A stretch of 39,061 bases of DNA. It comes from a virus. Its lineage: Duplodnaviria > Heunggongvirae > Uroviricota > Caudoviricetes. The stretch spans positions 1 through 39,061 of the IMG/VR virus record IMGVR_UViG_3300021431_000077; one strand, written 5' to 3'. The number at the start of each line of letters is the position of its first letter. Position 1 is the first letter of the stretch. The notes beneath the pieces were generated by a model that saw only the letters and a list, made by a program, of their open reading frames with translations, searched no databases and had not been told where the DNA came from. Positions 19,933-31,810 of the stretch are shown one piece after another. A program made the position numbers and the translations under genes.

Positions 19933-20005
19933 TGACATGTAGCTCAGTTGGTAGAGTAGCGGACTGTTAATCCGTTCGTCACTGGTTCGAGTCCAGTCAT
20001 GTCAG
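19933..20005 (+). tRNA. tRNA-Asn(GTT)
   Basis: gcgga-ct GTT aa-tccgt. Confidence 0.93.
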
Positions 20006-23295: not shown

Positions 23296-23324
23296 TTGAC
23301 AGTTGTCAATTATCTTTCTATATT
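23296..23324 (+). promoter_or_regulatory. Internal sigma70-type promoter for the second half of the RNA operon (includes the Y-like RNAs and Ro60)
   Basis: TTGACA-17 nt-TATATT, flanked by several extra TGACA boxes. Confidence 0.75.
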
Positions 23325-23457: not shown

Positions 23458-23692
23458 CGAATTTTAATGATACAGGCATACAACCGATTCATTGGAGCAA
23501 CAATAATCGGTGGCGATTAAATCGGCTTTGGATGTGCTAGTCCGAGACAGAGGTATTCAGCCGATTGACTGACTGGGCGACCATTAATGTATGCTGAATC
23601 GATGTGGACCACAGGTGTGCGGTGCGACAGGGGAAGGTTAACCCTTCTTACGAGTCCCCTCGGGTCGAGTATCATTATTTCTTTTTTCTTTT

Positions 23693-23781
23693 GGGTTGAC
23701 TGCGAGGATGGTGGTTTCGCAACGGACTGTAAATCCGTTCCCTCTGGGTAAACGCTGTAGGTTCGACTCCTATTCAACCCA
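23693..23781 (+). tRNA. tRNA-Tyr(GTA)
   Basis: acgga-ct GTA aa-tccgt, long variable arm. Confidence 0.88.
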
Positions 23782-23785
23782 CTAA

Positions 23786-23857
23786 AAGTCAGTGTCGTTT
23801 GAAAGCGTTACTTAGGATGAAGCTAAAAAGAACACGCTTTCTCTTTTTACCTGACTT
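23786..23857 (+). ncRNA. Small Y-RNA-like hairpin (module A)
   Basis: aagtcag/ctgactt terminal stem; TGTCG opposite TCTTTTT internal loop; gaaagcgt/acgctttc stem; TACTT. Confidence 0.6.
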
Positions 23858-23864
23858 CTTTTGT

Positions 23865-23993
23865 TCCAGGATAGCTCAGTTGGTTAGAGCACGTAAAACA
23901 CCTGTTCGCCTTTTTCTCCCGCAAGGGTTGCGATAGAATGGGTTACTTAGCCTGTTAAGCTCGGGGTCGTAGGTTCGAGTCCTGCTCCTGGTA
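23865..23993 (+). ncRNA. tRNA-Asn(GTT) body carrying a 55-nt structured insert (23894-23948) in the anticodon stem
   Basis: Intact D and T arms; removing the insert gives cgagc-ct GTT aa-gctcg and a 74-nt tRNA. Confidence 0.75.
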
Positions 23994-24005
23994 CTAATAA
24001 ATTTC

Positions 24006-24094
24006 ATCCAGTGTCGATAGAAACCGTTACTTCGCTCTGTCTTTTACACAGATTTGCCCTAACGGGCGTAATCGGTTTCGCTTTTTACCTGGAT
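24006..24094 (+). ncRNA. Y-RNA-like hairpin with two apical stem-loops (module B)
   Basis: atccag/ctggat; TGTCGATA opposite GCTTTTT; gaaaccg/cggtttc; TTACTT. Confidence 0.6.
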
Positions 24095-24097
24095 TTC

Positions 24098-24223
24098 CCC
24101 AGTGTAGCTCAGTTGGTAGAGCGCGTAAAAGACCTGTTTGCTTTTCTCCCGCAAGGGTTGCGATAGAATGGGTTACTTAGTCTGCAAAACTCGTGGTCAC
24201 AGGTTCGAGTCCTGTCGCTGGGT
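24098..24223 (+). ncRNA. tRNA-Cys(GCA) body carrying a 53-nt structured insert (24126-24178) in the anticodon stem
   Basis: Removing the insert gives cgagt-ct GCA aa-actcg and a 73-nt tRNA with U73; 39 nt identical to the segment at 23912-23950. Confidence 0.75.
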
Positions 24224-24493
24224 CTAAACAATCTTTCCGTTTCAGCGTAGCAGCAAACGGTGCCAAATCGCAGGTGGCACACCAAACCGTATGAGTATCC
24301 ATTCCGTGGCTGGATGTGGTGAAATGACACAAGGTGATTCTTGCGGATATATCGGTCGCTCCGATGAAATTTCCTTTTGTAAACGGCTGTTTCGCACAGC
24401 GCAAGCTCCCTTTCGGAAACAAAAGTTAAAAGGGATTATGATAGCGGATAACCAACGCCAATGGTGATATGCGAAGGAACAAATGCGAGGCTA

Positions 24494-24567
24494 GGGACCT
24501 TAGCTCAGTTGGTGAGAGCAGCGGACTCATAACCCGTCGGTCCCCGGTCCAAGTCCGGGAGGTCCCA
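24494..24567 (+). tRNA. tRNA with CAT anticodon, Ile2-like
   Basis: gcgga-ct CAT aa-cccgt; gggacct/aggtccc acceptor; T-loop TCCAAGT. Confidence 0.8.
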
Positions 24568-24895
24568 GAGTCTTGCTTTCTTACCGTTTGTTTACTGTGA
24601 CGACATTGCAAATCAAACGGCCTCTAAAGTTGGAAGTAAAAAGGGCAGGAAGGATATGGCGTCGAAAACCGTATCTGGTAATGCGGGTGAACTTCACATG
24701 AGGATAGTTCTATGCCTCGGAGAGTTTCAAATAGATAGCGTTTCGCACCGTCCCGAGATGAAGGTGGGGTGTCAGCGACCCAAAGAGCTGATGGTGCAAT
24801 AGATTGGTGCACAAATCTTAGCCTCCAGGTTTGGTGCAGTTCGGACTTCGGCTCGTCCTGTGTCGTGACTCGATTTCACGAAGGTTAACTAATAT

Positions 24896-24968
24896 GCGGA
24901 TGTAGCTCAATTGGTAGAGTTCCTGCCCTCCAAGCAGGTTGTTGTGGGTTCGAGTCCCATTATCCGCT
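24896..24968 (+). tRNA. tRNA-Gly(TCC)
   Basis: cctgc-cc TCC aa-gcagg (C33), U73. Confidence 0.88.
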
Positions 24969-24975
24969 CGAATTT

Positions 24976-25048
24976 GAGTTCGTAGCTCAGATGGTAGAGC
25001 AATAGACTTTTAATCTATGGGTCGCGAGTTCGACTCTCGCCGAGCTCA
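24976..25048 (+). tRNA. tRNA-Lys(TTT)
   Basis: ataga-ct TTT aa-tctat. Confidence 0.93.
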
Positions 25049-25057
25049 CGAAAATAA

Positions 25058-25130
25058 GCTTCATTAGCTCAGTTGGTAGAGCAGTTGCCTCTTAAGCATC
25101 GGGTCCAAGGTTCGAGCCCTTGATGGAGCA
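25058..25130 (+). tRNA. tRNA-Lys(CTT)
   Basis: gttgc-ct CTT aa-gcatc. Confidence 0.9.
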
Positions 25131-25139
25131 CTACATTAC

Positions 25140-25212
25140 TGGGGTATCGTCAAGTTGGTAAGACATGGGATTTTGATTCCCATATTCGTTGGTTCGAGTC
25201 CAGCTACCCCAA
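25140..25212 (+). tRNA. tRNA-Gln(TTG)
   Basis: tggga-tt TTG at-tccca. Confidence 0.92.
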
Positions 25213-25214
25213 CG

Positions 25215-25810
25215 AAATAGGCACTGAAAGATGGTCATGTGTTGCAAGACACGTTATAAAATCCAAAGGTTGCGGAGAAATCCACATAACGGGTGCCAAC
25301 ACGAATTTCCACAATCACTAAAAATGACTGCCGTCTTCGCCCCAATGCAGTTGGCGGTAGTTATGGATAGGACGCAGGTAGTTCACAGTGACTGGCATGC
25401 TACTATCCGTGTGATTCACAATGCATCATCCCGATGAGTTAAACCCTTATCGGTGAGGGCAGACTGCTCTCATTCCAGGTGTGGAAGTCAAGGGAAGACG
25501 ATGATGTACAAGTTCCTGTTCTTTCTAACAGGATATATTGCTCGAAGAAATGTTGGTATTGAGGGCTATGTATTCAGTGAATACTTGCTGCAACCATATA
25601 GCATTACGAGGAAGTTCCTCGGACATGTAATGGTGACAGCAATGTCAATGGATATTGAGCCAAGATAACATACGTCTCCGTGTTTTCAATCAGGTACTGT
25701 TCCCTGCGGTGAATCCGAAAACTGGCCGCATTGATTTGCGCATAGGTGCGGATGATTGCCTCTATAAGAGCACGGCTTACCATTCAGCTCGTTACGAAAG
25801 AGAATGGATT
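25215..25810 (+). ncRNA. Candidate large (~600 nt) structured non-coding RNA
   Basis: No convincing ORF with an SD; more than ten short helices in tandem between two tRNA genes. Confidence 0.45.
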
Positions 25811-25812
25811 TC

Positions 25813-25898
25813 GCGCAAGTACCCAAGTGGTCGAAGGGGGAGGTCTGCAAAACCTCTAGGCCGAAAGGCTCGCGTAAGTCCGAATCTTACCTTGTGCT
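25813..25898 (+). tRNA. tRNA-Cys(GCA) with long variable arm
   Basis: gaggt-ct GCA aa-acctc; variable ggcc-gaaa-ggct; U73; T-loop TCCGAAT. Confidence 0.8.
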
Positions 25899-25923
25899 TA
25901 ATTTTAACAGTAATGGAGACTCT

Positions 25924-26226
25924 ATGAGTACATTGGATAACGTTCATGTGGCGCAAGCTGTTGCTGCGGTAAAGGCTGCCGTTGAACCTCAAATTGAAAA
26001 GCTGGCTGAAAACAAGCTTTTGTTCAAGGATGGCGAAGCTTCCAGACGTGAAATTCTCGATGCCGTTTATGACATTTATCGTAAGGCGACGATAAACAAC
26101 GGTGTTAAGATGTGGCGTGCTTGGGACAATTTCGACAAGGATACGCACACATGCACGATAACGGTTGACGTTTTTGCTGGAAAGGAAAAGGTAACGTTTA
26201 AACACGTTGTCGGCCCGAAACAGTAA
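25924..26226 (+). CDS. Hypothetical protein (100 aa) inside the tRNA array
   Basis: GGAG SD before ATG 25924. The track start at 25804 overlaps tRNA-Cys and is unlikely. Confidence 0.7.
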   Translation: MSTLDNVHVAQAVAAVKAAVEPQIEKLAENKLLFKDGEASRREILDAVYDIYRKATINNGVKMWRAWDNFDKDTHTCTITVDVFAGKEKVTFKHVVGPKQ

Positions 26227-26234
26227 TTCCGATT

Positions 26235-26308
26235 GTGCTTGTAGCTCAGTTGGATAGAGCAACAGTTTCCTAAACTGTAGGTCGCCAGTTCGACTCTGGC
26301 CAAGCACA
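26235..26308 (+). tRNA. tRNA-Arg(CCT)
   Basis: acagt-tt CCT aa-actgt. Confidence 0.92.
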
Positions 26309-26313
26309 CTAAT

Positions 26314-26397
26314 GGAGAGATGGCTGAATTGGTAAAAGCGGAGCTTTGCTAAAGCTTTGTCGTAACAGACGCGCAGGTTCGAACCCTGTTCTCTCCT
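26314..26397 (+). tRNA. tRNA-Ser(GCT)
   Basis: gagct-tt GCT aa-agctt, long variable arm; U73 instead of the usual G73. Confidence 0.85.
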
Positions 26398-26405
26398 CTA
26401 ATTTC

Positions 26406-26539
26406 CCCACAGTAGCTCAGTCTGGTAGAGCGCTAGTAAATGAACAGCCTTTCGCTTTTTTCCCTGCAAAGGTGACGTATGGATGGCTTACTTCGATAAT
26501 GGGAACTGGATGTCGTAGGTTCAAATCCTGCCTGTGGGA
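26406..26539 (+). ncRNA. tRNA-Pro-derived body with ~60-nt Y-like insert in the anticodon arm
   Basis: cccacag/ctgtggg with A73, Pro-type D and T arms; insert agcctttc/ggatggct, GCTTTTTT, cct-gcaa-agg, TACTT; residual tgg ga actgg. Confidence 0.65.
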
Positions 26540-26551
26540 CTAAATTTTTTC

Positions 26552-26626
26552 GTGGTTATAACATAGTCTGGTCTAATGTGTCAGCTTGCCATGCTGGAGA
26601 CATGGGTTCAAATCCCATTAACCACT
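26552..26626 (+). tRNA. tRNA-Gly(GCC)
   Basis: tcagc-tt GCC at-gctgg; U73. Confidence 0.88.
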
Positions 26627-26630
26627 TAAC

Positions 26631-26788
26631 ACATGCCGACGCCTCCCCGTCAATCTGGCGACAGGTTGATTAACGGTAGGGGAGGGTTCCTCTTACAACT
26701 TTCTCGGTGAAAATCGTTGCGACGTGAGAGTTACTTAGATTGCCATAACATTAATCTTGTGAAAGTTCGACTCTTTCCGTCGGCATGT
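26631..26788 (+). ncRNA. tRNA-like RNA (11-bp terminal stem, T-arm) containing the Y-like module
   Basis: acatgccgacg/cgtcggcatgt; gaaag-ttcgact-ctttc; ctcttac/gtgagag, cggt-gaaa-atcg, TTGCGA, TTACTT. Confidence 0.6.
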
Positions 26789-26800
26789 TTTTTCTTTTAT

Positions 26801-26939
26801 GTCAGATTAGCTCAATGGTAGAGCTCCAGGCCCAAAACTCAGCCACTTTCGCTTTTCCCAATCCATTTGGATTGTGGTGTAGAAACGTGCTACTTAGGAA
26901 TCATCCAGGAGGTTGTCGGTCCGAGTCCGACATCTGGCA
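26801..26939 (+). ncRNA. tRNA body with Y-like insert and degenerate anticodon, immediately upstream of Ro60
   Basis: gtcagat/atctggc; D arm gctc/gagc; T arm gtcgg-tccgagt-ccgac; agccactttc/gaaacgtgct, GCTTTT, TACTT. Confidence 0.65.
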
Positions 26940-26991
26940 ATACTTTTTTTAACAACATCAACAATTCCTAATCACAACAAAGGAGATGATT

Positions 26992-28332
26992 ATGGCGTCG
27001 ATTAACAAGAGAAAGGTATCTACCCCTGTGTTTACTTACGAGGGTGGAAAGGCTTCACGAATCGGTTTCGAGGAGAAGTTGCAGCGTACTGTGCTGTGCT
27101 GCCTCCTGAACGAGGATACGTTCTATGAGGACGGCGAGTCCATCAAGGACCGCATCAAGGAATACATGGGCAAGGTCAGCCCAGAGTTCGCAATCAAGAC
27201 TCTGAACAAGGCCAAGCACGAGTATCACCTTCGTCATACCCCGTTGTTCATGCTTACTGTGCTCGCAAGTCAGGGTAAGCTGACTAAGGAACTTGTTTAC
27301 TCGACGGTAACCCGTGTTGATGACATCACCGAGTTGCTCGCCATGTACCTCGCAGACGGCAAGAAGAAGACGCTTCCGAAGCAGTTGCAGAAGGGCTTGG
27401 CTATGTCGTTCGACAAGTTCGACGAGTACCAGTTCGGTAAGTACAAGGGTAACAAGAAGAATGTGTCATTGAAGGATGCAGTCATGCTGTGCCACCCGAA
27501 GGCACCGAATGACGAGAAGAACGCTCTCTACAAGAAGATTGTAGACGACAGCCTTGCTACACCGCTTACTTGGGAGACCGAGTTGAGCGCTGGTAAGGAC
27601 AAGAAGACGGTCTTCGAGAACCTTCTTTCAACGAACAAGCTGGGTGCCCTCGCCCTGTTGAGGAACCTCCGCAACATGGAGCAGGCAAAGGTGTCACAGC
27701 GAGCAATCGCAGACGGCATCTCGAAGATGAACGTGCGTGGTATCATGCCGTACAACTTCTACACCGCAAACAAGCACAGCGACGGAACCTACTCCAAGCA
27801 GATTGAAGCAGCAATGCTCAGGGCAGCTCGTGAGACGTTCGACAAGTTGGAGGGTAACACCCTGTTCATGGTCGATACGTCGGGTTCTATGGACAACCAT
27901 TTGGCAGGTAAGAGCGAAGTCACTCGTGGAGAGGCTGCCGCATCTCTCGCTGCCATCATGGATGAGGTCTGTGAGTTTGACAAGGTTTACACCTTCGATA
28001 TGGATGCACATGCAACCACATCCAAGGGTTTTGCACTTGCCGACCGCTGTTCTCGTTGCACTGGCGGTACTGACCTTTACGGTTGTACCAACAGTGCTGT
28101 TCGCGCTAACACCAGACCGTTTGACCGTGTGATTATCATCACCGACGAGCAGTCTATTGGCGGTTGCTTCACCAAGGATGTTCTCCGCATCCCGCACAAG
28201 TACATCGTGAATGTGGCTCCGCACCAGTTCGGAATCTCTTACGGTGACTTCATCCACATCAACGGATTCAGCGACGGTATCTTCAAGTACATCGCTGAGT
28301 ACGAGAAGATGGGTGCAAAGAGCGAAGAGTAA
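26992..28332 (+). CDS. rsr: Ro60/Rsr-like RNA-binding protein (TROVE + vWA domains)
   Basis: TYEGGKA, EDTFYE, LRHTP, FDEYQFGKY, TWETELS, LGALALLRNLRN (TROVE); VDTSGSM and IIITDEQ (vWA MIDAS); AGGAG SD before ATG 26992. Confidence 0.92.
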   Translation: MASINKRKVSTPVFTYEGGKASRIGFEEKLQRTVLCCLLNEDTFYEDGESIKDRIKEYMGKVSPEFAIKTLNKAKHEYHLRHTPLFMLTVLASQGKLTKELVYSTVTRVDDITELLAMYLADGKKKTLPKQLQKGLAMSFDKFDEYQFGKYKGNKKNVSLKDAVMLCHPKAPNDEKNALYKKIVDDSLATPLTWETELSAGKDKKTVFENLLSTNKLGALALLRNLRNMEQAKVSQRAIADGISKMNVRGIMPYNFYTANKHSDGTYSKQIEAAMLRAARETFDKLEGNTLFMVDTSGSMDNHLAGKSEVTRGEAAASLAAIMDEVCEFDKVYTFDMDAHATTSKGFALADRCSRCTGGTDLYGCTNSAVRANTRPFDRVIIITDEQSIGGCFTKDVLRIPHKYIVNVAPHQFGISYGDFIHINGFSDGIFKYIAEYEKMGAKSEE

Positions 28333-28354
28333 TTTCTTTGTTCGTTAGACATTA

Positions 28355-28381
28355 GGGTGGCCGAAAGGCCATCCGTTTTTT
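28355..28381 (+). terminator. Intrinsic terminator after Ro60
   Basis: gggtggcc-gaaa-ggccatcc-gtttttt. Confidence 0.7.
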
Positions 28382-28454
28382 AGGGCGTTCGACCAGTTGG
28401 TAGGTCTGCAGTCTCCAAAACTGTTAGTCGGTGGTTCGAGTCCATCACGTCCTG
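28382..28454 (+). tRNA. tRNA-Trp(CCA)
   Basis: gcagt-ct CCA aa-actgt; G73. Confidence 0.9.
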
Positions 28455-28844: not shown

Positions 28845-30185
28845 ATGCAGAACACTGACTTTATTGAAACTCTTTCCGCAAAACTGTCTGACGGTGTACA
28901 ACCAGCTATGGATTTAGTGGTAGAAAACATCCTAAATGAATCTGATTTTGCAAAGTATGGGAACGACGAAGAGGATGTTTACTACAAGTATTCAATCCTC
29001 CTTCGTGCATCTGGGTTTCGCCCGAACGAGTTCGAAAATGAACTGAGGGCATCCGTGAGTGCCGCATCCGATATTGCGGTCACATCTAACTCTAAGAAGG
29101 GAAAGGCTTTGGACCGTGAGTCGTTGCTGTGCGAGGTTATTGAATATCTCGCCAGGGAATACTACAACGGTCATGAAAAGGCTTCTGACGATTCGTATGA
29201 CGGTCTCGTAATGGAACTTCGGTCTATCAATCCGAAGAACCCGTTGGCTGCGGGTGGGTTGGCTGCAGCTGACGATACGGGCCGAAAGAAATTCCAGCAT
29301 TACCTTGTTACTGGTACTCAGCAGAAGTATGCCAACATGGACGCATTCAAGGATGAATGGTTTCCGCAGTATGGTGGCAAGCATCGCCTTATGCTGAATG
29401 GCAAATGCGATGGTGCTGGAAGCGAAGTCATGTATCAGGACGGCAAGATTGTCCAAGCGATTTCCCGTGGTGACGGTTTCCAAGGTGAAGATATAACTCA
29501 ATCTGCTTTGAAGTGGAAGGGGCTTATTCACGAAATTCCGAACTTCACGGGTTCAATCCGTGGTGAGTTCATGTTGAAGGAAAGCGTGTTCCTCGAAAAG
29601 TATTCCCAGACGATGAAGACTGCTAGAAACGCTAGCTCTGGTTTGTCAAAGCGTCTTGACGGCAAGGGTTCCGAGGATATGTCCTTTGTCGCCTACGATG
29701 TTCTCAACAGGGCTCCGACCCAGTTCAAGACCGAATTGGAAAAGATGCAGTGGCTGGAATCCTGTGGATTTGAAGTTCCTATGTATGAACTTGTCGATAC
29801 GCTTGAACAGGTCAATGCGTTCCGTGAAAAGGTGTTTGCAAGCCGAAAGAAATCTATCGACTATGGCTGTGACGGCATTGTGGTCAAGATAAATGACATC
29901 GACTATGACGACCTTCGCCGCAAGACCCCGATGACGCAGTGTGCTATCAAGTTTGAACTGGAAACCGCCATTGCCACTCTAATTGGAATAGAATGGAGCT
30001 GCAAGGGCAGGTATCTTTCTCCCGTAGCCATCCTGACCCCGACTGAACTTGATGGTGTGACGGTAGAACGAGCCTCCTTGTCTAACCTGAACAAGATGCA
30101 GCAAATGGGCATTCAGATTGGTTGCAAGGTCCAGATTTCCCGTCATGGTGAAGTTATTCCTCAGGTCGATAGTGTTGTAAAATAA
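28845..30185 (+). CDS. ligA: NAD+-dependent DNA ligase, N-terminal part (Ia, adenylation and OB domains)
   Basis: SDDSYDGLVMELRSINP, GKCDG (KxDG), AISRGDGFQGEDIT, IRGEF, ARNASSG, DGIVVK, AIKF, VAILTPTELDGVTVERASLSN, RHGEVIPQV then stop. Confidence 0.9.
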   Translation: MQNTDFIETLSAKLSDGVQPAMDLVVENILNESDFAKYGNDEEDVYYKYSILLRASGFRPNEFENELRASVSAASDIAVTSNSKKGKALDRESLLCEVIEYLAREYYNGHEKASDDSYDGLVMELRSINPKNPLAAGGLAAADDTGRKKFQHYLVTGTQQKYANMDAFKDEWFPQYGGKHRLMLNGKCDGAGSEVMYQDGKIVQAISRGDGFQGEDITQSALKWKGLIHEIPNFTGSIRGEFMLKESVFLEKYSQTMKTARNASSGLSKRLDGKGSEDMSFVAYDVLNRAPTQFKTELEKMQWLESCGFEVPMYELVDTLEQVNAFREKVFASRKKSIDYGCDGIVVKINDIDYDDLRRKTPMTQCAIKFELETAIATLIGIEWSCKGRYLSPVAILTPTELDGVTVERASLSNLNKMQQMGIQIGCKVQISRHGEVIPQVDSVVK

Positions 30186-30202
30186 TTTTTACAATATAGG
30201 TG

Positions 30203-30231
30203 TTGCCAAGAAGTATTTAATTAGGTATATT
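30203..30231 (+). promoter_or_regulatory. Sigma70-type promoter for the protease / ligase C-part
   Basis: TTGCCA-17 nt-TATATT. Confidence 0.65.
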
Positions 30232-30257
30232 TTAGGTACAAACAAAGAGGTAACATC

Positions 30258-30917
30258 ATGAAAAAGCTTATCGGTATCATTCTTGTTTTCGCTGCAATGG
30301 TGTTTGCGAAATACGATGTGTACGGTGGAACGGGATTCTTCGTAAATAGCGAGTATCTCGTGACTGCATATCATGTCGTTGATGGTTATGAAAATATCTG
30401 CTATTACGACATAAAGAATGATACATGTATCAAGGCTCACGTCGTGGATTATACGGTTGACTCGGATGTTGCCTTGTTGAAGCTTGATGAGGAACCTGTG
30501 GAAATGCCTATGGTATGCCGTCTTGCTCACGGTGAATTGCCTATCGGGGAAAGACTGCTGTCGTATGGCTATCCTGACCCGATTAACGACACTTCTTTGA
30601 CTGTTATCCCGTTGAGTATTCGCATGCAGTATCGGTATGATGGCAATTACAGTTTCTATCGAATGACAGGAACGTTGCGGAGTGGAATGTCTGGCGGGCC
30701 TAACTTTACTAGGGACGGTCGAATCGGCGGAATGAGCAAGTCTATAATTGTGGAAGAGAATACTAGCAATGTGGTTAAGTCTACCGAATTGGTTCGTATT
30801 CTCCGTAAGAATGGTGTAACGGAATATCCGAATACAAAGAATGTGAAGAAATGTGTTATAAGCATCTTGAGTTCAGATTCAGAGTTCAAGTCTGCTCGTC
30901 AAAAATGGGGTTACTAA
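30258..30917 (+). CDS. Secreted trypsin-like serine protease
   Basis: Signal peptide MKKLIGIILVFAAMVFA; GTGFFV, VTAYHVV (His), DVALLKL (Asp), GMSGGP (Ser). Confidence 0.85.
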   Translation: MKKLIGIILVFAAMVFAKYDVYGGTGFFVNSEYLVTAYHVVDGYENICYYDIKNDTCIKAHVVDYTVDSDVALLKLDEEPVEMPMVCRLAHGELPIGERLLSYGYPDPINDTSLTVIPLSIRMQYRYDGNYSFYRMTGTLRSGMSGGPNFTRDGRIGGMSKSIIVEENTSNVVKSTELVRILRKNGVTEYPNTKNVKKCVISILSSDSEFKSARQKWGY

Positions 30918-31810
30918 TGATTCCTGAAAAATACAAAGAATATGTGGCATCGAACATTGCTTTCCCGAAGGAATGCCCTGTCTGCCACGGTGAGTTGAAT
31001 GTGTTGGACAACGGGATGGTTTGCTGTGTGAACCCGTCCTGCCCTCAAAAGATTGTCCATAAGTTTGCCAACTTCTTCGATGTCTTGGCGATTGACGGTG
31101 CTGGAGATAGCTGTGTTTCTGCCCTTGTCAATGAAGTCGGCATGAAGAAGATTCCTGAACTGATTTCCGATGCCGTATCTGGCGGAAACGGGCTTGCCAA
31201 GGCAATGAATAGCCAAGTGAACGGTGCGAAGCTCCGTAAGAACATGTTGGCGGCGATGAACGAACCGATTTCCATGAGCAAGTTCCTGTCCCTGTTTGAC
31301 TTTGACGGGTTCTCCGAAGCGAAACTGTCTGGTTTGGAGCGCCTTGAAGTGTTTGGCGGATGGTATGACAACCCGATGTCCACATTGGCGACCATCCGTT
31401 CATATACTCCTGAAAAGCTTGCCATGTTGGTCATCCCTGGGTTCAGCGCTTATGAAGTTAAGTTGAATTTGTTTACCCAGATGTTTGACGCTATTGATGA
31501 AATCACGGGAACTGTTGAACTCGGAAAGTTCACTTTCAAGAAGTCTGTGGAAATGGATGCTCTTGGTGGATTGTCTTTCTGCTTCACTGGTGCGATGGAA
31601 TACAATCGTGACGACCTTGAACGCACCGTGAAGGCGTTTGGTGGGCTTGTAAAGGGAAGTGTCAGTGCAAAGCTTGATTATCTCGTGCAGGCTGACGAAA
31701 ACTCCACCTCTACCAAGTCGAAGAAGGCAAAGCAGCTCGGCGTGAAGATTATTACGCCAGAAAAGTTCTTTGCCCTCTTGAAAGAAAAGGGTGTAAATAC
31801 TATATTGTAG
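30917..31810 (+). CDS. ligA: NAD+-dependent DNA ligase, C-terminal part (Zn finger, HhH, BRCT)
   Basis: CPVCHGEL...CVNPSCP, LAIDGAG, FCFTGAMEYNRDDL...VKGSVSAKLDYLV...KSKKAKQLGVKII. Confidence 0.88.
   Translation: MIPEKYKEYVASNIAFPKECPVCHGELNVLDNGMVCCVNPSCPQKIVHKFANFFDVLAIDGAGDSCVSALVNEVGMKKIPELISDAVSGGNGLAKAMNSQVNGAKLRKNMLAAMNEPISMSKFLSLFDFDGFSEAKLSGLERLEVFGGWYDNPMSTLATIRSYTPEKLAMLVIPGFSAYEVKLNLFTQMFDAIDEITGTVELGKFTFKKSVEMDALGGLSFCFTGAMEYNRDDLERTVKAFGGLVKGSVSAKLDYLVQADENSTSTKSKKAKQLGVKIITPEKFFALLKEKGVNTIL

What the first reader, a model, noticed from the sequence alone, without database searches (positions are those of the whole stretch)
23786..28332. Phage Ro60 with a family of seven Y-RNA-like modules, five circularly permuted into tRNA or tRNA-like bodies
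Seen in sequence: one module recurs seven times upstream of the Ro60 gene. It is an outer stem, an internal loop with a (G/T)CTTTT(T) strand opposite a TGTCG/TTGCG-type strand, a 7-8 bp inner stem, then TACTT. At 23786 and 24006 it is a free hairpin closed by its own 5' and 3' ends. At 23865, 24098, 26406, 26631 and 26801 the strand order is reversed. There the outer stem is capped by a loop (GCAA, GCAA, GCAA, GAAA, ATTT) and the open end joins a tRNA or tRNA-like body with free acceptor ends. Established: bacterial Ro60 (Rsr) binds Y RNAs encoded next to its gene through the stem formed by their 5' and 3' ends. YrlA-class Y RNAs carry a tRNA-mimic domain with a closed acceptor stem. Inference: A and B are ordinary-topology Y RNAs. 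The other five are the inverse topology, tRNAs with a Ro-docking arm. That could be an undescribed Ro60-tRNA system, such as aminoacylatable Y RNAs, anticodon-nuclease decoys or tRNA repair and quality control.
Basis: partly seen in the sequence, partly recalled or inferred. Interest (0 to 1): 0.95.

Follow-up and report, generated by a model that had tools for sequence, protein, structure and literature searches.

The report
tRNA-shaped Y RNAs beside phage Ro60
A giant rumen phage encodes a Ro60 protein and, just upstream in its tRNA array, seven partner-type (Y) RNAs; five of them are the known bacterial tRNA-mimic Y RNA built the other way round, as real tRNA-order genes with open acceptor ends and a closed Ro60-docking arm, a layout I did not find described.

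Summary
One stem/internal-loop/stem module followed by UACUU occurs exactly seven times on the + strand, within 3.2 kb upstream of a TROVE (Ro60) gene.

- **Free hairpins:** two copies (A, B) are closed by their own ends.
- **tRNA-embedded copies:** five (C-G) have the strand order reversed and the outer stem capped by a tetraloop. They sit where the anticodon arm of a tRNA or tRNA-like body should be.
- **Match to known Y RNAs:** the same two loop strands occur in the Deinococcus Y RNA consensus and in YrlA-order RNAs beside bacterial TROVE genes. C-G are therefore circular permutations of YrlA-type Y RNAs, in tRNA gene order.
- **Specificity:** complete 419-422 kb relatives carry five capped copies each, all next to TROVE.
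- **Other lineages:** ten other phage TROVE loci (37-46% protein identity) have the same tRNA-embedded arm. None of 80 bacterial loci do.
- **Splicing:** this looks unlikely. There is no splicing endonuclease, RNA-library contigs are unspliced, and the anticodons are non-natural or absent.

Ro60 binding and the function are inferred, not shown. This scan noted the same thing earlier on related rumen phage DNA, and analogous systems with another Ro60-like family. I found no published description.

Verdict: a new variant of a known kind.

The parts
23786..23857 (+). Y RNA A, ordinary topology. Outer stem AAGUCAG/CUGACUU closed by the RNA's own ends, then UGUCG strand, inner stem GAAAGCG/CGCUUUC, UUACUU, a variable loop, and the CUUUUU strand.
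   Evidence: Sequence. Fold. Conserved stems with a variable loop in relatives. It fills the spacer between tRNA-Tyr (ends 23782) and element C (starts 23865).
23865..23993 (+). Element C, a tRNA-order Y RNA. It has acceptor, D and T arms. The capped module 23900-23948 is inserted between tRNA positions 28 and 29, and an Asn-like (GUU) anticodon hairpin is retained beside it.
   Evidence: Rfam tRNA 38.2 bits over 129 nt. Model R1 68.9 bits. Model R3 109.8 bits. ARAGORN calls Asn(gtt) after in-silico deletion of the insert.
24006..24094 (+). Y RNA B, ordinary topology. Outer stem AUCCAG/CUGGAU, UGUCGAUAG strand, inner stem GAAACCG/CGGUUUC, UUACUU, and a two-hairpin variable domain.
   Evidence: Fold z-score -4.6. 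Both stems change in a compensatory way relative to A. The variable domain is replaced in the 84% lineage.
24098..24223 (+). Element D, a tRNA-order Y RNA. The capped module 24132-24178 lies between positions 28 and 29, beside a Cys-like (GCA) hairpin. In the 84% lineage this hairpin becomes an 8-nt loop.
   Evidence: Rfam tRNA 42.9 bits. R1 65.6 bits. R3 111.8 bits. Alignment. ARAGORN result.
26406..26539 (+). Element E, a tRNA-order Y RNA. It has a full 5-bp anticodon stem (CUAGU/ACUGG, with covariation in relatives). The capped module 26444-26493 replaces the anticodon loop.
   Evidence: Rfam tRNA 46.9 bits with a 67-nt insert. R1 63.6 bits. R3 108.3 bits. Alignment.
26631..26788 (+). Element F, a degenerate tRNA-like body. 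It has an 11-bp terminal stem, a long hairpin in place of the D arm, and a T arm at 26761-26777. Capped module at 26690-26736.
   Evidence: Sequence. R1 32.1 bits. Alignment A1 shows the inner stem CTCTTAC/GTGAGAG. Conserved in relatives.
26801..26939 (+). Element G, a tRNA-order body with acceptor, D and T arms but no recognisable anticodon. Capped module at 26841-26895, with a 6-bp outer stem and ATTT loop.
   Evidence: Rfam tRNA 40.8 bits. R1 47.8 bits. R3 71 bits. The inner stem covaries in relatives.
26986..28332 (+). Ro60 (TROVE plus vWA) gene, 448 aa.
   Evidence: Pfam TROVE, E 4e-15. The closest solved relative is the Ro60 of Thermus phage phiLo (9KOP/9L5Y, E 8e-26 over residues 12-437). 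The DxSxS metal-site motif is invariant in the family alignment (D297, S299, S301).
28355..28374 (+). Terminator-like hairpin followed by a T run, just after the Ro60 stop codon.
   Evidence: Consensus scan only.
23296..23324 (+). Promoter-like site (TTGACA, 17 nt, TATATT; 11 of 12 positions). It could start the unit that runs through the Y RNAs to Ro60.
   Evidence: Consensus scan only. The number of such sites is no higher than in shuffles.

Best explanation
The seven elements are the Y RNAs of the phage's own Ro60.

**Docking site.** All seven share one Ro60-docking module. It is an outer helix, an internal loop with a UGNCG(A/U) strand opposite a GCUUUU(C) strand, a 7-8 bp inner helix, then UUACUU.

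**Two layouts.**
- A and B are short Y RNAs of the usual layout, with the docking helix closed by the RNA's own ends.
- C-G are the tRNA-mimic class (YrlA type) built in unpermuted tRNA gene order. The acceptor stem is open, and the docking helix is closed by a tetraloop. It projects from the anticodon arm, either between positions 28 and 29 beside a retained anticodon-like hairpin, or in place of the loop.

**Inferred steps.**
- Because the genes lie inside a tRNA array, host RNase P and 3' processing release C-G as tRNA-like molecules. A and B fill inter-tRNA spacers exactly, so the same cuts release them.
- The Ro60 ring binds the module.
- The tRNA-shaped body is the effector domain that links Ro60 to a factor that recognises tRNA.

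The architecture, its conservation and its link to TROVE are shown. Binding, processing and function are inferred.
For: **Ro60 gene**
- TROVE domain. The nearest solved relative is the Thermus phage Ro60, which binds Y-like RNAs encoded upstream of its gene (PMC12135203).

**Module structure**
- In alignment A1, 91% of cells are paired against 74% in shuffles. In A3 (53 distinct sequences), all 10 pairs show changes on both sides.

**Link to TROVE**
- The capped module occurs 5 times in the window's own 175 kb record and 5 times in each of two complete 419-422 kb relatives. Every copy lies next to TROVE.

**Match to known Y RNAs**
- The Rfam Deinococcus Y RNA consensus reads outer stem, CCGAAG, inner stem, UUACUUC, in the same order as A and B.
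- B reads GUCGAUAG against the published Ro60 motif GNCGAAN0-1G (PMC4201824).
- Acidobacterial TROVE loci hold RNAs with the same two strands in YrlA order. For example L106:1993-2125 has a closed acceptor with a TTCG loop, then a D arm, then GCUUGUUCC. This shows the circular permutation directly.

**Other phage lineages**
- Tightly capped modules with 5 or more inner pairs occur 26 times in 16 phage loci, and in 10 loci besides the window they sit in a full tRNA body. None of 80 bacterial loci has a well-paired capped module.
- L015 (TROVE 46% identical) has a Glu-like gene with the insert at 28/29 directly upstream of TROVE.

**RNA evidence and processing enzymes**
- Rumen metatranscriptome contigs from 4 studies span the elements with the insert in place.
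- Complete relatives encode an enzyme of the CCA-adding family.
Against: - **No binding data:** nothing here shows that Ro60 binds these RNAs.
- **Motif not exact:** the published GNCGAA/CGAA motif is not matched exactly. The copies read CGAUA, CGUUU, CGUAU, and UGUAG in G.
- **Rfam models silent:** the Rfam YrlA and Deinococcus Y RNA models do not reach threshold on any element.
- **Census models blur topology:** models R2 and R3 also score the 3' strand of one unit followed by the 5' strand of the next in tandem YrlA-order arrays. Only copies with a tight cap prove the topology.
- **RNA evidence is indirect:** it comes from contigs, which cannot show RNA ends, CCA tails or rare spliced forms and may include DNA.
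- **Unexplained feature:** the intact anticodon-like hairpins in C and D, and the recurrence of the GUU loop, are not explained by this model.
Confidence: 0.8

Rival explanations
1. C and D, and similar genes elsewhere, are real tRNA genes (Asn, Cys, Glu, Lys) interrupted at position 28/29 by a new kind of small intron. An unknown nuclease would cut it out and the phage RtcB would reseal the tRNA. Ro60 might assist, or the excised hairpin might itself be the Y RNA.
For: - Deleting the insert restores a perfect 5-bp anticodon stem and 7-nt loop in at least 9 elements with 8 different stem sequences. ARAGORN then calls Asn, Cys, Glu and Lys.
- The window's own phage record encodes RtcB.
- The insertion site is the same in distant lineages.
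Against: - Two complete relatives have no tRNA-intron endonuclease (best E 0.04, below cut-off).
- The junction is an internal loop, not a bulge-helix-bulge motif.
- E, F, G and the class without a hairpin have nothing to splice to.
- Several 'anticodons' are not natural decoders. GCU and UAG sit on short-arm bodies, one is AUG, and D has an 8-nt loop in the 84% lineage.
- C has a U1-U72 mismatch and A73. The phage's ordinary tRNA-Asn (19933-20005) has G73.
- The same pairs form a three-way junction without any splicing, and bacterial YrlA-order RNAs have the same junction and hairpin with no exons.
- UUACUU also follows the inner stem in A, B and the Deinococcus Y RNA.
Confidence: 0.08
2. The module is a processing, termination or mobile repeat of tRNA arrays that has nothing to do with Ro60. 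Its position next to TROVE would be hitch-hiking.
For: It lies in a tRNA array. C and D share an identical 39-nt segment, which suggests recent copying.
Against: - There are no copies elsewhere in about 1 Mb of three genomes that carry dozens of other tRNAs.
- Across 79 phage and 80 bacterial TROVE loci, every model hit lies on the TROVE strand within about 1.6 kb of the gene.
- The stems covary.
- The motif is shared with a Y RNA whose partnership with Ro60 is established (PMC4201824).
Confidence: 0.03
3. C-G are decaying tRNA pseudogenes that picked up an insertion and have no function of their own.
For: F and G have lost tRNA features. In E, the place where an anticodon would be is degenerate.
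Against: - All five are kept in relatives whose Ro60 is only 84% identical, with compensatory changes in the acceptor, inner and outer stems.
- The same architecture is kept in ten other phage lineages.
Confidence: 0.03

Closest known systems
YrlA (Y RNA-like A; Rfam RF02553; Chen et al. 2014, PMC4201824; structure in bioRxiv 10.1101/312249)
   Same: Both are encoded beside a Ro60 gene. Both join a Ro60-binding helix to a tRNA-like domain with D arm, T arm and acceptor stem, and in both the binding helix extends from the anticodon-stem position. M. smegmatis YrlA is even cut by RNase P and receives CCA.
   Different: YrlA is described as resembling a circularly permuted tRNA. Its ends lie in the Ro60-binding helix and its acceptor stem is a closed loop. 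Here the gene order is that of a tRNA: the acceptor is open and the Ro60 helix is closed by a tetraloop. Some copies keep an anticodon-like hairpin. RF02553 does not match them (best 25 bits, at junctions between tRNAs).
Deinococcus radiodurans Yrn1 (Rfam RF01053)
   Same: The 5' strand has the same order: outer stem, a (G)NCGA-type loop strand, inner stem, UUACUUC. It also carries tRNA-like pieces.
   Different: Yrn1 has ordinary topology. Its 3' loop strand differs. The model does not reach threshold on A or B.
Thermus phage phiLo Ro60 with Yrl1/Yrl2 (PMC12135203; PDB 9KOP, 9L5Y)
   Same: A phage-encoded Ro60 that is the closest solved relative of this protein. Stem-bulge-stem RNAs are encoded upstream of the gene, and binding was shown by gel shift.
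   Different: Yrl1 and Yrl2 are simple hairpins with a CGAA motif. No tRNA-order bodies were reported.
Short bacterial Y RNAs (YrlB, Yrn2)
   Same: A and B are a short docking helix plus a small variable domain, encoded next to a tRNA-mimic Y RNA.
   Different: A and B sit exactly in inter-tRNA spacers of a phage tRNA array.
Permuted and intron-containing tRNA genes of algae and archaea
   Same: They show a circular-permutation relationship between a tRNA-order RNA and an RNA with a closed acceptor. Some inserts lie at non-canonical sites in the anticodon stem.
   Different: Those are processed by a splicing endonuclease into working tRNAs. Here no such enzyme is found, and most bodies have no usable anticodon.

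Membership tests
Y RNA (Ro60-associated non-coding RNA) | Encoded next to a Ro60/TROVE gene, on the same strand | tested here: met
   All seven lie within 3.2 kb upstream of the TROVE gene on the + strand. The same holds in relatives and in other TROVE loci.
Y RNA (Ro60-associated non-coding RNA) | Helix-loop-helix carrying the conserved Ro60-binding motif (GNCGAAN0-1G in bacteria, PMC4201824; CGAA in PMC12135203) | tested here: inconclusive
   The architecture is met and covaries. The motif is only approximate: GUCGAUAG in B, UGCGAUAG in C and D, GACGUAUG in E, GGUGUAG in G. The strand order matches the RF01053 consensus, including UUACUUC.
Y RNA (Ro60-associated non-coding RNA) | Physically bound by Ro60 | not testable with these tools
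   This needs a gel-shift or co-immunoprecipitation experiment.
YrlA (RF02553) | tRNA-like domain with D arm, T arm and acceptor stem | tested here: met
   The Rfam tRNA model matches C, D, E and G from end to end. Acceptor, D and T stems are 98-100% paired across 19 elements.
YrlA (RF02553) | Permuted order: 5' and 3' ends in the Ro60-binding helix, acceptor stem closed by a loop | tested here: not met
   C-G have open acceptor ends, and the Ro60 helix is closed by GCAA, GAAA or ATTT loops.
YrlA (RF02553) | Reaches the Rfam gathering score (69 bits) | tested here: not met
   The best YrlA matches in 23650-27000 are 18-25 bits and span junctions between ordinary tRNAs.
Canonical tRNA (RF00005) | Cloverleaf with 7-bp acceptor stem, D arm and T arm | tested here: met
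   C, D, E and G score 38-47 bits against a gathering score of 29. F does not match.
Canonical tRNA (RF00005) | Uninterrupted 5-bp anticodon stem with a 7-nt loop, and identity elements that fit the anticodon | tested here: not met
   Inserts of 50-67 nt are present. ARAGORN calls none of the five correctly. C has A73 and a U1-U72 mismatch. The anticodon of D is not kept in relatives.
Intron-containing tRNA | A splicing system: a bulge-helix-bulge motif with its endonuclease, or a self-splicing group I intron | tested here: not met
   PF01974 is absent from two complete relatives. No intron family matches in Rfam. The insert is only 53-67 nt, and the junction is an internal loop.
Intron-containing tRNA | Spliced product present in RNA | tested here: inconclusive
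   Contigs from four rumen RNA libraries carry the insert, and no joint removes it. Contigs miss rare forms and mature tRNAs.
Ro60 / Rsr protein | TROVE domain followed by a vWA domain with a DxSxS metal site | tested here: met
   Pfam TROVE, E 4e-15. D297, S299 and S301 are invariant in the family alignment. E 8e-26 to the phage Ro60 structure over residues 12-437.

The most novel reading that the evidence does not exclude
[quoted passage not shown] Through their retained anticodon-like hairpins, with GUU recurring in phages and bacteria, they would present Ro60 to enzymes that read anticodon loops. Candidates are host anticodon nucleases and G34-modifying enzymes. Under this reading Ro60 acts as a phage-side guard, decoy or repair platform for the phage's own large tRNA set, together with RtcB.
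Probability: 0.15. Interest if true: 0.85.

Novelty: new variant of a known kind. Interest (0 to 1): 0.72.

Why it matters
**A long-standing puzzle.** YrlA-type Y RNAs resemble circularly permuted tRNAs, and the partner of their tRNA-like domain is unknown. This window holds the natural unpermuted form, ordinary short Y RNAs and the Ro60 gene side by side in one phage tRNA array. The exact permuted counterpart occurs in bacteria.

**What it offers.**
- It gives a concrete path for how Y RNAs arose from tRNA genes.
- It explains how such RNAs can be released from a tRNA array by ordinary tRNA processing.
- It provides compact natural constructs, about 125 nt with free acceptor ends. These make three questions testable: does a Ro60-bound tRNA mimic receive CCA, is it charged, and is it attacked by anticodon nucleases?

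**A gap in detection.** Current Rfam models miss this whole clade, in phages and in Acidobacteriota alike.

Tried and rejected
- **Phage database:** blastn of 23600-28400 against the phage collection found only shared tRNAs and no relative.
- **Rfam Y RNA models:** neither the YrlA nor the Deinococcus Y RNA model matched any of the seven elements, even at E 10.
- **RNAduplex test of topology:** comparing upstream and downstream pairing partners by duplex energy was too noisy. The background was -12 to -19 kcal/mol.
- **Rule-based censuses of topology:** two attempts were too permissive. One relied on inner-stem pairing of 6 of 7 with 3 outer pairs, the other on the order of acceptor, D and T arms. 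They even flagged the window itself as YrlA-order, so I dropped them.
- **Models R2 and R3 as topology tests:** both also score the junction between two tandem YrlA-order units in bacterial loci, up to 75 bits with unpaired inner stems. The counts of 135 and 83 hits therefore show only that the two motif strands lie beside TROVE. The tight-cap criterion replaced them.
- **Laid RNA contigs:** they show no joint that removes the insert. The listed joints with 20-22 nt sides are other organisms' tRNAs. The join 23911 to 24142 runs through the 39-nt repeat shared by C and D and may be a k-mer collapse. Contig depth cannot rank expression.
- **PNPase in the phage:** no RNase PH or PNPase domain was found in the phage genomes. 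Any PNPase partner would have to come from the host.
- **Two reviews:** PMC10870794 and PMC6047535 were not held.

Full report
**What is in the window.** The window is the first 39 kb of a 175 kb IMG/VR virus record, estimated 42% complete. Relatives include two complete genomes of 419 and 422 kb with terminal repeats. The sequence occurs in bovine and sheep rumen metatranscriptomes, so this is a giant rumen phage.

The region 19.4-28.8 kb is a tRNA array of 35 ARAGORN calls. The ORF 26986-28332 encodes a 448-aa TROVE protein (Pfam E 4e-15). Its closest solved relative is the Ro60 of Thermus phage phiLo (E 8e-26 over residues 12-437). Its vWA metal-site motif DxSxS is invariant in the family alignment.

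- A (23786-23857) and B (24006-24094) read: outer stem, UGUCG-type strand, 7-bp inner stem, UUACUU, variable domain, inner stem, (G/U)CUUUUUAC, outer stem.
- In C, D, E, F and G the order is: inner stem, GCUUUU(C) strand, outer stem capped by GCAA, GCAA, GCAA, GAAA or ATTT, U(U/G)NCG strand, inner stem, UUACUU.
- The Rfam tRNA model matches C, D, E and G from end to end with a 50-67 nt insert at the anticodon loop.
- MAFFT showed that F's inner stem is CTCTTAC/GTGAGAG.
- The U[UG][GUA][CU]G-N9-13-UACUU strand occurs seven times in this orientation in 39 kb, all in the seven elements, where about 0.2 would be expected in this 3.2 kb.

**Structure.** Orthologues of all seven elements exist in relatives whose Ro60 is 84-99% identical.

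- On 26 capped modules, the two helices are 91% paired. Shuffles give 74% and slid controls 26-54%. Pair types include CG/GC, CG/AU/UA and GU/UA.
- After adding distant phages (53 distinct sequences), all ten pairs show changes on both sides. That alignment is fitted to the model, which favours pairing.
- A and B differ from each other by compensatory changes in both stems.
- Across 19 tRNA-order elements from 11 lineages, the 7-bp acceptor stem is 97.7% paired with every pair covarying. [quoted passage not shown]

These are real tRNA-shaped RNAs with a real extra arm.

**Is the module a Ro60 site?** Four lines of evidence point that way.

- **Exclusivity.** A covariance model of the capped module finds five copies in the window's own 175 kb record and five in each complete 419-422 kb relative. 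All lie next to TROVE and none elsewhere.
- **Known Y RNA.** The Rfam consensus of the Deinococcus Y RNA reads outer stem, CCGAAG, inner stem, UUACUUC. B's GUCGAUAG is one letter from the published bacterial Ro60 motif GNCGAAN0-1G (PMC4201824).
- **A distant phage.** A high-GC phage with a 25%-identical TROVE gene has four ordinary-topology units with GUGCAUAG...(C/U)UACUUC upstream of the gene. One of them is a partial YrlA match.
- **Bacterial loci.** Bacterial TROVE loci, from Acidobacteriota and Bradyrhizobium, carry the same two strands (UGGCGUAG...UUACUUC and GCUUGUUCC) in RNAs of classic YrlA order. The order is: strand 1, T arm, acceptor closed by a TTCG loop, D arm, strand 2 (L106:1993-2125).

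The phage elements C-G and these bacterial RNAs are exact circular permutations of one another, down to the anticodon-like hairpin that follows UACUU. The literature describes most YrlA RNAs as resembling circularly permuted tRNAs with closed acceptor stems (bioRxiv 10.1101/312249). C-G are the unpermuted form.

**Is it confined to this phage?** No.

- An ENA contig with a 46%-identical TROVE gene has, directly upstream, a Glu-like tRNA gene with the module inserted at the same 28/29 site. It also has an ordinary-topology unit downstream.
- I fetched 74 diverse viral TROVE loci and 80 bacterial ones. Every model hit in both sets lies on the TROVE strand within about 1.6 kb of the gene.
- My models also score the junction between tandem YrlA-order units. 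I therefore counted only modules whose outer stem is closed by a loop of at most 12 nt and whose inner stem has at least 5 pairs.
- By that criterion there are 26 modules in 16 phage loci, and in 10 loci besides the window they sit in a full tRNA body. None of the 80 bacterial loci has a well-paired one.
- At this depth of sampling, the tRNA-order layout is a phage trait.

**Two classes.**

- **With a retained hairpin.** In C, D and relatives elsewhere, the arm leaves the anticodon stem between positions 28 and 29, and a 3-bp hairpin with a 7-nt loop remains. Deleting the insert in silico gives ARAGORN calls of Asn (three independent lineages), Cys, Glu and Lys. It also gives His-AUG, and Leu-UAG and Ser-GCU on short-arm bodies.
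- **Without a hairpin.** In E and its like, a full 5-bp stem carries the arm in place of the loop, and no consistent anticodon emerges.

**The splicing rival.** Another first-stage note on this window read C and D as interrupted tRNAs. I rate this unlikely (0.08), for these reasons:

- There is no tRNA-intron endonuclease in two complete genomes, and no intron family in Rfam.
- The junction is an internal loop, not a bulge-helix-bulge.
- E, F and G have nothing to splice to.
- Several anticodons are not natural decoders, and D's loop becomes 8 nt in the 84% lineage.
- C has a U1-U72 mismatch and A73, while the phage's ordinary tRNA-Asn has G73.
- Bacterial YrlA-order RNAs have the same junction without exons.
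- RNA-library contigs from four studies span the elements unspliced. This last point is weak, because contigs miss rare forms and cannot show ends.

**How it probably works.** A begins 3 nt after tRNA-Tyr and ends 7 nt before C. B begins 12 nt after C and ends 3 nt before D. RNase P and 3' trimming of the neighbouring tRNA-shaped genes would therefore free A and B as well.

C-G would be cut out like tRNAs. No tRNA in the array encodes CCA, and complete relatives encode an enzyme of the CCA-adding family.

Ro60 would dock on the capped arm, and the tRNA body would serve as the effector domain, as proposed for YrlA. The phage also encodes RtcB but no PNPase.

These steps are inference. The partner of the tRNA body and the role of the GUU-type hairpin are unknown.

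**Prior knowledge.** Full-text searches found YrlA, the Thermus phage Ro60 paper and a jumbo-phage survey that mentions TROVE with a tRNA-like partner. None describes tRNA-order Y RNAs with a capped Ro60 arm.

This scan has noted the same arrangement on related rumen phage DNA, and analogous tRNA-bodied RNAs beside a different Ro60-like family in many phages. Those are unchecked AI notes that agree with, but do not add to, the evidence here.

Noticed in passing
L106:1993-2270, L166:1540-1690, L115:2030-2460 (bacterial TROVE loci): YrlA-order RNAs (closed acceptor) with the same docking strands lie upstream of TROVE in Acidobacteriota and Bradyrhizobium. None of 20 such loci reaches the Rfam YrlA gathering score, so RF02553 under-detects this clade.
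   Followed up: partly
window 23949-23963; L042:2664-2680; L097:2498-2515; L036:2165-2180; L166:~1575-1592: An anticodon-like hairpin with loop CUGUUAA (Asn GUU) follows UACUU in independent phage lineages and in a bacterial YrlA-order RNA. It looks like a conserved functional part, not a leftover of a real tRNA.
   Followed up: partly
window 24244-24811 and 25323-25727: The two long non-coding spacers, one around tRNA-Met and one before the small ORF, are covered by the deepest contigs in four rumen RNA libraries. They are candidates for further abundant structured RNAs.
   Followed up: no
window 23911 joined to 24142: One metatranscriptome contig joins element C to element D through their identical 39-nt segment, deleting B. 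This is either a strain deletion or a k-mer collapse in assembly.
   Followed up: no
window 28845-31810: The NAD-dependent DNA ligase is split into an adenylation-plus-OB ORF (28845-30185) and a BRCT-bearing ORF (30851-31810). A trypsin-like protease ORF (30258-30917) lies between them.
   Followed up: partly
window 25813-25898: ARAGORN and Rfam call an 86-nt tRNA with anticodon GCA (Cys) and a long variable arm. That is unusual for tRNA-Cys.
   Followed up: no
L026:531-1432, L027:2074-2856, L042:2379-2897: Some phage TROVE loci carry arrays of 6-8 docking-module units only 5-80 nt apart. In these arrays it is unclear which strand pairs with which, so capped and ordinary topologies cannot be told apart.
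   Followed up: partly
G000:C1:65656-66723; G001:C1:38511-38894: The phage lineage encodes RtcB RNA ligase and an enzyme of the CCA-adding (PolyA_pol) family. It has no PNPase and no tRNA-intron endonuclease.
   Followed up: partly
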